64,000 nt of DNA from an uncultured Pseudomonadota bacterium (lineage in GTDB: Bacteria; Pseudomonadota; Alphaproteobacteria; RF32; CAG-239), in assembly GCA_902788365.1 (NCBI GenBank), contig CADAJN010000003.1, positions 58,656 to 122,655 on the forward strand, read 5' to 3'. The translations under genes were made by a program, and so were the position numbers. The notes under the pieces are model-generated. The model was not told where the DNA came from. It did no database searches and saw only the letters and a program-made list of their open reading frames with translations. This document shows, piece by piece, positions 60,141 through 61,672 of this stretch. Position 1 is the stretch's first letter, and each line of letters begins with the position of its first letter.

Positions 60141-60553
60141 TGAAAAAATAAATAGTGTCATGCCTATTTTGCCAACAGGCAAAATTCAAGGCATCTTCAA
60201 ATTAAAAAAATTAGTGCTTCGCAAAGACCAGATTCCTTGATGACCTGACGCGCAGCGCAGGTCAAGGAATGACATAAAAAAATAAAAAGTCCGATAAATT
60301 TAGGAAAAAATGCAGTTTTGATGAACGACACAATCGGACTTGGTAAGAGCACGTTCCAACAAAAGCAAAAACCCGCCTCAAGGGCGGGTTTCTTGCATTG
60401 GTGCGCTTTTGCTATGCGACTATCGGACTGAAAATGCGCAAGAATATAGAGAACTGGGATATAAAATAGAGAAAGTATTGGAAAATATCTAAAAGCATAT
60501 TGAAAGAAAATTTGTAGTTTTGTATTCTGAACAAATGTTTTAGGAGATTAATT

Positions 60554-61672
60554 ATGCTTTTTATAAAATCGTTTTTTCAAATTTTCAATCCGCAGATAAA
60601 TGTGAAATACGTCCAAACAAAAGAGGAAACAGAGAACGGAAAAATTAACCGTAAATTTATATGTTTTGATAGTAAAAAGGTTGATATTTCAAGTATATTA
60701 GCCGCAAAAATATTGGCGAAAAAAATGGGAAAAAAATTTTTTCCTTTGCTGGAAAATTTATTAAAAAGTACAAAAAATCAAGAAAAATCAGCACAAATAT
60801 TAAAAACAAAAGCGTGGGTTTATAAAAAAGCTGTTTGGCACCCTGCGTTAGTTGAAAAATGTACGCACAAAGCTTTATATAAAATGAAAAAAGCCAAAAC
60901 ATTTACGTCTTTTCCGTTGTCGTATAAAGAAATATACAATGATGTTTCAATCGTAGCAATTTTGCACGATATTGGCAGATTATCTGAAGTAGATATTACA
61001 CAAGGCGCTGTTTGTATGAAACACAGTGGGCTAAACAAGAATCATGCTGCTATAAGCTTTGATATTTTAGAATATGCAAACATTAAACCGGAAATTCTGC
61101 TTGCCATAAAATATCACGAGTTCGCCGACGTTGAAGAGGCAAAAAATGATGAAATTTACAAAAGTTTACCAGAAAAAAATAAAACAATAGCACAATTTTA
61201 TATTCGTTTATTGCAAGATATGGATAAAACCGCCAATTTGTTGGAACGTTCAAAATTCGGTATAAAAAAATGTGCTGAGTTTTTTGATCCGCATTATCTT
61301 CAAGATTATGCTCTTACGGATGAATATTTTGTAAAGGCAATCAACGGAAATTATCTAAATATCAAGGGCGGACATCTTTTAGATGCGATGATGCGTTTTG
61401 TCACATGGACATACAGCATACACTTTGCTCAAACAAAAGAAATATTATCTGAAGTTCTAACCAATTTTTTCTGGCAGATGTACCAAGAAGCTATCACTGA
61501 GTATGAAAAATCAGATGATAAAGATTCCTCCCGGTTGGCCTGCACTTTAGAAAAAATAATAAGGCTTGAAGATTATGCTATTACCGAAAGAATGGGGATG
61601 AATATTAATGCAAAAAATCGCACTAAAATAAGAAGAAAAATAGAAAAATTACAACAATTGTCCGATAGTTGA
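60554..61672 (+). CDS. HD-domain phosphohydrolase family protein
   Basis: H...HD motif (VAILHDIGR). Conserved promoter/leader shared with the 63338 gene. Confidence 0.65.
   Translation: MLFIKSFFQIFNPQINVKYVQTKEETENGKINRKFICFDSKKVDISSILAAKILAKKMGKKFFPLLENLLKSTKNQEKSAQILKTKAWVYKKAVWHPALVEKCTHKALYKMKKAKTFTSFPLSYKEIYNDVSIVAILHDIGRLSEVDITQGAVCMKHSGLNKNHAAISFDILEYANIKPEILLAIKYHEFADVEEAKNDEIYKSLPEKNKTIAQFYIRLLQDMDKTANLLERSKFGIKKCAEFFDPHYLQDYALTDEYFVKAINGNYLNIKGGHLLDAMMRFVTWTYSIHFAQTKEILSEVLTNFFWQMYQEAITEYEKSDDKDSSRLACTLEKIIRLEDYAITERMGMNINAKNRTKIRRKIEKLQQLSDS

What the first reader, a model, noticed from the sequence alone, without database searches (positions are those of the whole stretch)
60411..60556. 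Two different genes carry a homologous ~135-bp promoter/5' leader
The regions upstream of the HD-domain gene (60411-60556) and the GNAT-like gene (63203-63340) align at about 70% identity over about 135 bp. Both have ATCGGACTGAAAAT at the 5' end, a sigma70-like promoter (TTGAAA-17 bp-TATTCT or TATGTT) and a GGAGAT RBS. A third, shorter relative sits upstream of the hydrolase gene (58745-58830). Conservation upstream of the -35 element suggests a shared regulator binding site or a cis-acting leader RNA.
Basis: seen in the sequence. Interest (0 to 1): 0.55.

Follow-up and report, generated by a model that had tools for sequence, protein, structure and literature searches.

The report
Serine-recombinase cassette scars, not leader RNA
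The shared sequence upstream of the two genes is the left-end scar of small mobile gene cassettes inserted one after another at a tRNA-Thr gene: a recombinase attachment half-site, then the last ~30 codons of a large serine recombinase gene, then a short promoter region. It is not a regulatory leader RNA.

Summary
Windows 60399-60556 and 63184-63340 align without gaps at ~74%, and 58743-58826 is a truncated third copy. The window comes from an uncultured rumen/gut alphaproteobacterium. Positions ~58.7-64.9 kb form a low-GC island that ends at tRNA-Thr(GGT), just beyond the window.

Related metagenome contigs carry an intact large serine recombinase (LSR) gene whose 3' end runs into the 3' end of that tRNA. 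Full-length LSRs (543-565 aa) end ...KWCAILCSYRTENYDEFKEL...; integrated copies stop at ...KWCR. So the attachment site lies inside the LSR gene, and integration leaves the last 28-39 codons at the far end of the element.

Each "leader" therefore has three parts:
- TGGTGC (crossover region, the tRNA GCACCA end) plus a half-site ending in TATCGGACT
- the LSR tail remnant (an HMM of intact LSR tails hits exactly these three places, E 6e-11 to 9e-8)
- in the HD and GNAT copies, a ~60-nt intergenic stretch with the promoter-like hexamers and RBS.

The window's cassettes have lost the LSR. The GNAT cassette recurs 96.6% identical in other metagenomes, with similarity starting and stopping at TGGTGC. 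No RNA structure is predicted.

The parts
60399..60429 (+). P' half-site of the HD cassette: TGGTGC (crossover region, complement of the tRNA 3' end GCACCA), a 16-17-nt spacer, and TATCGGACT, the presumed zinc-ribbon-domain (ZD) motif.
   Evidence: The same 30-nt block occurs in 28 distinct metagenome copies. It translates as WCA[IL][LV]CxYRT, matching residues ~512-521 of intact LSRs.
60427..60492 (+). Remnant of the LSR C-terminal tail, TENAQEYRELGYKIEKVLENI*.
   Evidence: tblastn E 0.002. An HMM built from 8 intact LSR tails gives E 4e-8. Codon switching among copies is shown.
60493..60553 (+). Cassette intergenic region with a promoter-like TTGAAA (60500-60505), 17-nt spacer, TATTCT (60523-60528), and RBS GGAGAT (60543-60548).
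   Evidence: It is 97% conserved in strain relative L032 and 89% identical over 36 nt to the GNAT copy. Function is inferred only.
60554..61672 (+). Cargo gene of the HD cassette (372 aa, weak HD-domain match).
   Evidence: The same gene sits next to tRNA-Thr(GGT) in L032.
61653..61775 (+). Right end (P arm) of the HD cassette. It holds J2, the inverted boxes GTCCGAT...ATCGGAC (61653-61710), a terminator (61738-61763) and TGGTGC (61770-61775). This is a decayed remnant of LSR codons ~466-512.
   Evidence: DNA alignment with the intact LSR 3' end. L054 and L072 are intermediates in which J, core and tail hit LSR aa 455-535 (E ~1e-19). Small ORFs P0059 and P0014 read through continuously.
63184..63213 (+). 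P' half-site of the GNAT cassette (TGGTGCGCTTTGCTTTGCAAATATCGGACT).
   Evidence: Similarity to L070/L071 begins exactly here.
63211..63276 (+). Remnant of the LSR C-terminal tail, TENYDDYKQWEYKQGKAFENV*.
   Evidence: tblastn E 6e-6. HMM of intact LSR tails gives E 5.8e-11.
63277..63337 (+). Intergenic region with TTGAAA (63284-63289), 17-nt spacer, TATGTT (63307-63312), and GGAGAT (63327-63332).
   Evidence: It is 100% identical in L070/L071.
63338..64000 (+). GNAT cassette cargo: GNAT 63338-63832 and a second GNAT from 63842 that runs off the window. The cassette ends at TGGTGC at window-equivalent 64661-64666, and tRNA-Thr(GGT) lies at 64841-64915.
58693..58826 (+). Truncated third copy. J0 (58693-58750) is fused through its right box ATCGGACT directly to an LSR tail remnant, TENYENFKKLSYKLEEVSEIIYLKE* (58748-58825). 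There is no TGGTGC and no separate promoter. The hydrolase ATG is at 58827.
   Evidence: HMM E 9.4e-8.
60283..60398 (+). Right end of the hydrolase/YgjV cassette: J1 (60283-60340) and a terminator (60367-60393). It abuts the HD cassette's TGGTGC.
62846..63011 (+). Right-end module of the cassette carrying the reversed 321-aa gene: third box ATCGGACT (62846-62853), J3 (62896-62953) and a terminator (62978-63007).
   Evidence: It is 81% identical to the module next to the tRNA (L001 13939-14297).
63012..63183 (-). Copy of the last 12 nt of tRNA-Thr(GGT) (63012-63023), a GC-rich structured element (63024-63141) and most of its own terminator hairpin (63142-63187, whose last four bases overlap the next TGGTGC). 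This is a separate insertion between one cassette's right end and the next cassette's P' site.
   Evidence: It is not part of the leader and remains unexplained.

Best explanation
The repeated block is the left (attR-side) end of a family of small integrative cassettes. These insert, by large-serine-recombinase (LSR) site-specific recombination, at the extreme 3' end of tRNA genes; here the target is tRNA-Thr(GGT).

Shown:
- In autonomous members the attachment site attP lies inside the LSR gene, ~30-39 codons before its stop.
- Integration joins the LSR body to the tRNA end, so the gene now ends ...KWCR*.
- The tail codons (WCAILCxYRTENY..*), and whatever lies downstream of the LSR stop codon, are left at the far end of the element.

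Inferred:
- Later arrivals insert again at the tRNA and push older units inward. This would build a tandem array in which each unit starts with TGGTGC, the P' half-site, the LSR tail remnant and an intergenic region with a promoter. Each unit ends with a decayed LSR 3' remnant (the J boxes) and a terminator that now serves the tRNA.
- The [T/A]ATCGGACT motif is the zinc-ribbon-domain recognition motif. It lies 5 bp further from TGGTGC in the cassette half-site than the T-loop-derived AATCGGACT does in the tRNA, which is the known attP/attB geometry of LSRs.
- The promoter-like part drives the first cargo gene.
- The four units in this window have lost their LSR and probably move, or moved, using an LSR supplied in trans.
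For: - An intact LSR (Pfam Resolvase + Recombinase + Zn_ribbon_recom) abuts tRNA-Thr(GGT) in L065 and ends ...PEIDKWCR** inside the tRNA's 3' end.
- Full-length homologues P0065-P0071, P0075, P0077, P0091 and P0099 (540-565 aa; six of them are 90-94% identical to the composite query) continue ...KWCAILCSYRTENYDEFKEL.... The 514/526/544-aa forms stop in tRNA-antisense codons.
- An HMM built only from intact LSR tails finds exactly the three leader copies as the top hits in the six-frame window: E 5.8e-11, 4e-8 and 9.4e-8, with the next hit at 0.12. tblastn agrees.
- Across 26-28 distinct copies, Leu, Arg and Ala codons switch synonymously. The reading frame has 2 stops in 28 copies x 20 codons, against 26 and 86 in the other two frames.
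- In L054 and L072 the J region, core and tail hit LSR aa 455-535 contiguously, E ~1e-19. The DNA alignment of J modules with the LSR 3' end is.
- L069 shows an array of intact LSR, then an LSR-less cassette, then the tRNA. The downstream cassette supplies the LSR's tail.
- The GNAT cassette (window-equivalent 63182-64666) is 96.6% identical to L070/L071. The similarity starts and ends at TGGTGC and the flanks are unrelated. The HD cassette behaves the same way relative to L032.
- The same right-end module sits directly next to tRNA-Thr(GGT), tRNA-Gly(CCC) and tRNA-Leu(TAA) in 39 metagenome loci. At a tRNA-Gly island the far junction starts with the tRNA-Gly end, TGGAGCA.
- The motif occupies nt 22-30 of P' and nt 17-25 of the tRNA antisense. 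This matches ZD motifs at positions 16-24 in attP and 11-19 in attB in PMC3783163.
- The island has 30-34% GC against ~43% for the rest of the window.
Against: - There is no LSR gene in the window or in the 7 kb beyond it, so activity here cannot be tied to a resident enzyme.
- The left (P) half-site of LSR-less cassettes is a terminator hairpin rather than LSR codons, and no mirrored ZD motif was found at the expected distance. Their competence as attP is therefore unproven.
- Internal P-core-P' junctions imply insertion into an attL-like site, which canonical serine integrases do not use.
- The central dinucleotide could not be fixed.
- Two copies in L026 carry a tRNA-like spacer, suggesting that some exchange also happens at ATCGGACT or by gene conversion.
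- The excess of synonymous differences is modest: 0.173 against 0.127-0.134 in the other plus-strand frames, and the in-register antisense frame scores 0.169.
- The promoter is consensus-level only.
Confidence: 0.85

Rival explanations
1. The block is a shared cis-regulatory element: a transcription-factor operator upstream of the -35, or a structured 5' leader RNA (riboswitch or attenuator) that co-regulates the HD, GNAT and hydrolase genes.
For: Three genes carry it. The invariant ATCGGACTGAAAAT lies upstream of a promoter-like site.
Against: - The conserved stretch is homologous to the C-terminal coding sequence of an LSR.
- It evolves with codon-like substitutions.
- It lies upstream of the predicted transcription start.
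- Folding z-scores are 0.47, -0.66 and 0.51, and no Rfam family matches on the plus strand.
- The same block precedes unrelated and even reverse-oriented genes in other loci.
Confidence: 0.04
2. The cassettes are remnants of tyrosine-integrase islands that cross over in the T-loop of tRNA-Thr(GGT). On this view ATCGGACT is the core and the repeats are ordinary partial-tRNA att scars.
For: ATCGGACT is the reverse complement of T-loop positions 51-58 of tRNA-Thr(GGT), and 10-nt matches recur in the island. J0 is fused to the tail remnant at ATCGGACT, and an 89-nt segment is flanked by ATCGGACT direct repeats. Two L026 junctions carry a tRNA-like spacer.
Against: - A motif scan found no tyrosine recombinase in any of the arrays fetched up to that point. 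The recombinases found in these arrays are serine recombinases: the LSR in L065 and L069, which abuts the tRNA in L065, and a 198-aa resolvase in L063/L064/L066.
- Cassette identity breaks at TGGTGC, not at ATCGGACT.
- The module also sits next to tRNA-Gly and tRNA-Leu, whose T-loops read ATCGAACC.
- Internal junctions carry a 30-nt LSR-coding block, not a tRNA 3' end.
Confidence: 0.05
3. The array is purely a graveyard. On this view each unit was an autonomous LSR element that independently lost its LSR in place, LSR-less units have never moved, and the similarities reflect vertical descent plus homologous recombination among the repeated modules.
For: No LSR is present here. The P arm of LSR-less units is a terminator, not a recognisable half-site. 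The terminators are mosaic between the window and L032, which suggests homologous exchange.
Against: - The LSR-less right-end module (GTCCGATA..GAAAAA..AATCGGACT plus terminator) is itself conserved in 39 loci from rumen and human-gut samples with different cargo. Only one of them keeps a large LSR fragment.
- The identical LSR-less 1.48-kb GNAT unit occurs between different neighbours, with breaks at TGGTGC on both sides.
Confidence: 0.3

Closest known systems
Large serine recombinase (serine integrase) integrative elements, e.g. Listeria A118/LI, phiC31, Bxb1
   Same: The recombinase has Resolvase + Recombinase + zinc-ribbon domains. The sites are short and need no arm-type sites. A 9-bp distal motif lies 5 bp closer to the centre in the host site than in the element site (PMC3783163).
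   Different: The target is the CCA end of several tRNA genes. attP lies inside the recombinase ORF, so integration removes 30-39 C-terminal residues. Arrays show P-core-P' junctions, i.e. insertion next to an earlier element. Most units lack the recombinase.
Tycheposons of Prochlorococcus (bioRxiv 10.1101/2020.12.28.424599)
   Same: Cargo elements insert repeatedly at one tRNA, newer ones push older ones into the island, and degenerate remnants and partial att copies remain.
   Different: Tycheposons mostly use tyrosine recombinases (910 of 937) and are flanked by partial tRNAs. Here the scar is a recombinase-gene tail plus only ~6 nt of the tRNA, the host is a gut/rumen alphaproteobacterium, and the units are 1.4-2 kb.
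SSV1-type archaeal integrases, and mycobacteriophage integration-dependent immunity (BPs, Brujita)
   Same: attP lies inside a coding sequence of the element, so integration splits or truncates the gene (PMC8371274 for SSV-type, listed; the mycobacteriophage case is from my own knowledge).
   Different: Those elements use tyrosine recombinases. In SSV the split is near the N-terminus and inactivates the integrase; in BPs the truncated gene is the repressor. Here a serine recombinase loses only its tail, and a downstream cassette can restore it (L069).
Integron gene-cassette arrays
   Same: Short, mostly single- or two-gene units without their own recombinase sit in a head-to-tail array at one site, each bounded by a recombination site.
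   Different: There is no IntI tyrosine recombinase and no attC with R''/L''-L'/R' structure. These cassettes carry their own promoter region. The recombination site derives from a serine recombinase gene and a tRNA end.

Membership tests
Large-serine-recombinase integrative element (att scar / non-autonomous derivative) | A recombinase with Resolvase, Recombinase and zinc-ribbon domains is encoded by the element. | tested here: not met
   It is absent from the window and from 7 kb beyond it. It is present in related arrays L065 and L069 and in 328 database homologues. The window units are therefore filed as LSR-less derivatives, not autonomous members.
Large-serine-recombinase integrative element (att scar / non-autonomous derivative) | The sequence is homologous to the element's attP region. 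| tested here: met
   The three copies are the top hits of an HMM of intact LSR tails, which contain attP (E 6e-11 to 9e-8). The J, core and tail module is contiguous with LSR aa 455-535 in L054/L072.
Large-serine-recombinase integrative element (att scar / non-autonomous derivative) | The host and element half-sites share a distal (ZD) motif that is shifted 5 bp toward the centre in attB. | tested here: met
   TATCGGACT lies at nt 22-30 from TGGTGC in P'. AATCG[G/A]AC[T/C] lies at nt 17-25 in tRNA-Thr, tRNA-Gly and tRNA-Leu. This is a sequence pattern only; binding was not tested.
Large-serine-recombinase integrative element (att scar / non-autonomous derivative) | The partner sites share an identical central dinucleotide and the unit boundaries are precise. 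| tested here: inconclusive
   Boundaries fall within TGG[T/A]GC, but the dinucleotide cannot be assigned.
Large-serine-recombinase integrative element (att scar / non-autonomous derivative) | Recombination activity, meaning integration or excision. | not testable with these tools
   This needs an in vitro or in vivo assay, or read-level evidence of circles.
Integron gene cassette | An IntI-type tyrosine recombinase with attI, and attC sites with R''-L''/L'-R' symmetry and GTTRRRY. | tested here: not met
   No tyrosine recombinase motif was found in the window or in the array loci fetched up to that point. The J arms are GTCCGAT/ATCGGAC and derive from LSR codons.
Known cis-regulatory RNA (Rfam leader or riboswitch) | A match to a curated covariance model, or a thermodynamically unusual conserved fold. 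| tested here: not met
   Only tRNA passes a gathering score. At E-value thresholds only terminator-driven minus-strand hits appear. Folding z-scores are near zero.
Tyrosine-integrase tRNA island (partial-tRNA att repeats) | Direct repeats of the tRNA 3' segment flank each unit, with a linked tyrosine integrase. | tested here: not met
   Internal junctions carry the 30-nt LSR-derived block, not the tRNA's 25-nt 3' end. No tyrosine integrase was found.

The most novel reading that the evidence does not exclude
The LSR-less units form a working, integron-like cassette system driven by a serine recombinase. Promoter-carrying 1.4-2-kb cassettes would be captured in trans at the CCA end of tRNA genes. 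Each incoming cassette would hand its ~30-39-codon tail to the recombinase gene of the element upstream of it. The recombinase would then exist in a truncated form (next to the tRNA) or a full-length form (next to another cassette, or circular), and this could act as a built-in switch of activity or directionality.
Probability: 0.2. Interest if true: 0.75.

Novelty: new variant of a known kind. Interest (0 to 1): 0.45.

Why it matters
For annotation, a block that looks like a shared promoter and leader is really a mobile-element junction. Co-regulation should not be inferred from it, and the small ORFs called across it in many assemblies (P0001-P0064) are fragments of a recombinase gene.

For mobile-element biology, the comparison brings out an LSR family in gut and rumen Alphaproteobacteria with four features of interest:
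- it targets the 3' end of several tRNA genes;
- its attP lies inside its own coding sequence;
- it builds tandem arrays;
- it has given rise to a widespread lineage of recombinase-less cassettes with sharply defined ends.

Serine integrases with well-defined short sites are sought for genome engineering. This family's sites can be read directly from the junctions.

Tried and rejected
- Integron attC hairpin. This was my first idea for the GTCCGAT...ATCGGAC inverted repeat. I rejected it once the repeat proved to be LSR codons.
- Crossover in the tRNA T-loop by a tyrosine integrase. Cassette identity breaks at TGGTGC, and the module also sits next to tRNA-Gly and tRNA-Leu.
- Rfam P9 and rnk-leader sub-threshold hits at 60359-60451(-). 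Both are driven by the terminator hairpin.
- A real small protein. The 32-83-aa ORFs found in the database begin at arbitrary points in decayed LSR sequence. No conserved start exists, and the 30-nt block varies in length (26-31 nt) in some copies.
- The tail as the end of a chromosomal target gene (the SGI1/trmE model). No long ORF reads into any of ~30 junctions.
- A viral-contig scan with the LSR found nothing, and a viral scan with the J pattern gave three isolated hits, probably chance matches.
- PADLOC found no defence families among the cargo.
- PDB sequence search of the LSR gave no hit at E <= 1e-3.
- Literature searches for an LSR with attP inside its own gene found no description. 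This does not prove novelty.

Full report
**Observation.** The two upstream regions align without gaps at 74% over 141 nt: 60408-60548 vs 63192-63332 (family D4). A shorter copy precedes the hydrolase gene (58743-58826). ATCGGACT occurs 14 times in the window against 0.86 expected, and 10 of the 14 fall in 58.7-63.6 kb.

**Context.** The window belongs to an uncultured gut/rumen alphaproteobacterium. A GcrA gene lies nearby, and the relatives are RUG/RGIG "Alphaproteobacteria" MAGs. The last 6 kb have 30-34% GC against ~43% elsewhere. The same contig (L001) continues beyond the window. It shows that the low-GC stretch ends at tRNA-Thr(GGT), window-equivalent 64841-64915 on the minus strand. 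tRNA-Thr(CGT) lies at 57149-57224.

Every gene block in the island ends with three features:
- an inverted repeat AAGTCCGATA-N34-36-AATCGGACT, which I call J (J0 58693, J1 60283, J2 61653, J3 62896, J4 beyond the window)
- a terminator
- TGGTGC.

Every "leader" starts at that TGGTGC.

**False starts.** I first took J for an integron-like attC. I then took ATCGGACT, which is the complement of the tRNA-Thr(GGT) T-loop, for the core of a tyrosine-integrase site. A metagenome scan with the J pattern returned 39 loci from rumen and human-gut samples. In these loci the J-terminator module is followed by one of three things:
- a tRNA on the minus strand: Thr-GGT, Gly-CCC, Leu-TAA or others
- a GC-rich element
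- the block TGGTGCGCGATACTATGCGATTATCGGACT plus the "leader".

So the module is not specific to the tRNA-Thr T-loop.

**The leader is coding sequence.** Across 26-28 distinct copies, the stretch from TGG onward translates as WCA[IL][LV]CxYRTENY[DE][DE][YF]K.L..K.E.... The copies show synonymous switches: Leu TTG/CTG/TTA/CTA/CTT, Arg AGA/AGG/CGG/CGC, Ala GCG/GCA/GCT. Entropy is highest at third codon positions. There are only 2 stops in 28 copies x 20 codons, against 26 and 86 in the other two frames. No long ORF reads into any junction.

A profile of these peptides found only 32-83-aa ORFs. Some of them read continuously from J through TGGTGC into the tail (P0059 and P0014).

**The source gene.** The contexts of one such ORF gave the answer. 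In L065 a 514-aa large serine recombinase (Resolvase + Recombinase + Zn_ribbon_recom) runs into the 3' end of tRNA-Thr(GGT). It ends ...KFLKSPIISQKRDILKLILSDCKTEGKNLCFSIAKPFDKLLKTPEIDKWCR**. This assigns each part of the repeated module:

| Module part | What it is |
|---|---|
| J | LSR codons KSPI...LSDC |
| Spacer and "terminator" position | LSR codons KTEGK...PEIDK |
| TGGTGC | The junction with the tRNA's GCACCA end |

A search with the LSR found full-length proteins of 540-565 aa that continue ...KWCAILCSYRTENYDEFKELTRKMELFEDSVEEDL. It also found abundant 514-, 526- and 544-aa forms that end in tRNA-antisense codons. An HMM built only from eight intact tails hits the three leader copies as the top three fragments of the six-frame window (E 5.8e-11, 4e-8 and 9.4e-8; the next hit is 0.12). 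L054 and L072 are intermediates in which J, core and tail still hit LSR residues 455-535 contiguously (E ~1e-19).

**Mechanism.**
- Shown: attP lies within the LSR gene, ~30-39 codons before its stop. The integrated LSR is truncated at the tRNA. The tail is found at the far end of the element, or of the next unit.
- L069 shows an intact LSR whose tail is supplied by a downstream LSR-less cassette, which in turn abuts tRNA-Thr(GGT).
- The crossover is within TGG[T/A]GC. The GNAT unit (window-equivalent 63182-64666) is 96.6% identical to L070/L071. The similarity begins and ends at TGGTGC, and the flanks are unrelated. The HD unit behaves the same way relative to strain relative L032. At a tRNA-Gly island the far junction begins TGGAGCA, the tRNA-Gly end.
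- Inferred: [T/A]ATCGGACT is the zinc-ribbon-domain motif. It lies at nt 22-30 from TGGTGC in the cassette half-site. The T-loop-derived AATCG[G/A]AC[T/C] lies at nt 17-25 in the three target tRNAs. Rutherford et al. describe this 5-bp shift for attP (positions 16-24) and attB (positions 11-19) (PMC3783163).
- Inferred: repeated insertion at the tRNA builds the array, as proposed for tycheposons.

**What the window holds.** There is no LSR in the window. It holds four LSR-less units:
1. Hydrolase + YgjV, from 58743. Its P' site is lost, and J0's right box is fused to the tail remnant.
2. HD, 60399-61775.
3. The reversed 321-aa gene with a complete right-end module but no P' site or tail, 61770-63189. 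A GC-rich element is inserted in this unit.
4. GNAT + GNAT, 63184 to 64666.

**The promoter part.** After the tail's stop codon, the HD and GNAT copies share TAAAA[G/A]CATATTGAAA-17-TAT... and GGAGAT (89% over 36 nt). This stretch is conserved in other copies of each cassette. Several other cassettes with forward cargo have a comparable TTGAAA/TTGACA-17-TAnnnT just after the stop. Many others have a reverse-oriented gene there instead.

A promoter for the first cargo gene is plausible but untested. Promoter-like matches are not enriched in the region. The predicted 5' UTR would be ~20 nt. The whole blocks fold no better than shuffled sequence, and no Rfam family matches on the plus strand.

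**Open points.**
- The left half-site of LSR-less cassettes is a terminator hairpin, and I found no mirrored ZD motif there.
- Canonical serine integrases do not insert into attL-like sites, yet the arrays imply this.
- The central dinucleotide is not fixed.
- The J boxes stay exact in LSR-less cassettes although their spacer has diverged. A third upstream box is a better ATCGGACT than the homologous LSR codons. These may be extra binding sites (notebook, "unexplained").
- The open tail ORF in LSR-less cassettes may be maintained because it completes an upstream LSR, as in L069.

**Comparison and novelty.** The system works like a serine-integrase integrative element and builds arrays like tycheposons. 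Placing attP inside a gene recalls SSV-type archaeal integrases and mycobacteriophage integration-dependent immunity. My literature searches found no description of a serine recombinase with attP in its own 3' coding region that targets tRNA CCA ends, or of recombinase-less cassette lineages derived from one. That is absence of evidence only.

I rate it a new variant of a known kind. The finding as first stated (a shared regulatory leader) is largely explained away. The element family behind it is of moderate interest.

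Noticed in passing
window 56792-57107 (two tandem 158-nt units), 63012-63141; L001 14108-14262; L010, L011, L012, L019, L025, L032, L033, L049, L058: GC-rich structured elements of ~105-130 nt sit just after tRNA terminators on the tRNA strand. Their 5' ~25 nt are imperfectly antisense (G.U-tolerant) to the tRNA's T-arm/acceptor 3' half. Their 3' end is an exact copy of the tRNA's last 12-19 nt including CCA, followed by a second terminator. They occur at Thr-CGT, Thr-GGT and Ser-CGA genes in several species. Relatives share a conserved core, GACAAGG..ACGGGAGTRTGCCGGTC. 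Folding z-scores are -2.3 to -3.5 on both strands, and no Rfam family matches. They may be a miniature tRNA-targeting mobile element or a small RNA with a minihelix-like end.
   Followed up: partly
window 57149-57224 vs L008-L019: tRNA-Thr(CGT) is on the minus strand here. It is on the plus strand downstream of the MscS gene in ten relatives and, cut off by the contig end, in the closest one, L004. This suggests a local inversion next to the island.
   Followed up: no
window 58693-58750, 60283-60340, 61653-61710, 62846-62953; L001 13944-14049: The inverted ATCGGACT boxes of J, and a third upstream box, stay exact in recombinase-less cassettes while the 35-nt spacer has diverged to ~50%. The upstream box is a better match to ATCGGACT than the homologous LSR codons (ATCGCTGA). 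These may be extra recombinase-binding sites.
   Followed up: partly
L032, positions ~60-260 (read on the minus strand): In a strain relative, a second partial copy of the 5' half of tRNA-Thr(GGT) lies upstream of the intact tRNA. Another GC-rich insert separates them and begins with an inverted anticodon-stem fragment.
   Followed up: no
window 58844 / L001 8273: An 18-nt (6-codon) indel near the start of the hydrolase gene is the only difference between the window and the public contig over 13.4 kb.
   Followed up: yes
L063 9536-10132, L064, L066: A 198-aa small serine recombinase (Resolvase + HTH_7) lies inside related cassette arrays, near a Bro-N protein, an AAA_21 ATPase and a GIY-YIG nuclease. 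Its role is unknown.
   Followed up: no
window 57798-58319 (-) and 59640-60140 (+): Two YgjV-family inner-membrane protein genes lie in the same island. One is in a cassette and the other is in the segment next to tRNA-Thr(CGT).
   Followed up: no
proteins P0074, P0078, P0107: LSR forms of 526, 544 and 546 aa end in translations of other tRNA genes' antisense strands (..KWCRWQESDLRPRHYQ..KWCRRKESDFRPHPYQGCALPLSYGG..). The family therefore targets several tRNA species, each giving a different artificial tail.
   Followed up: partly
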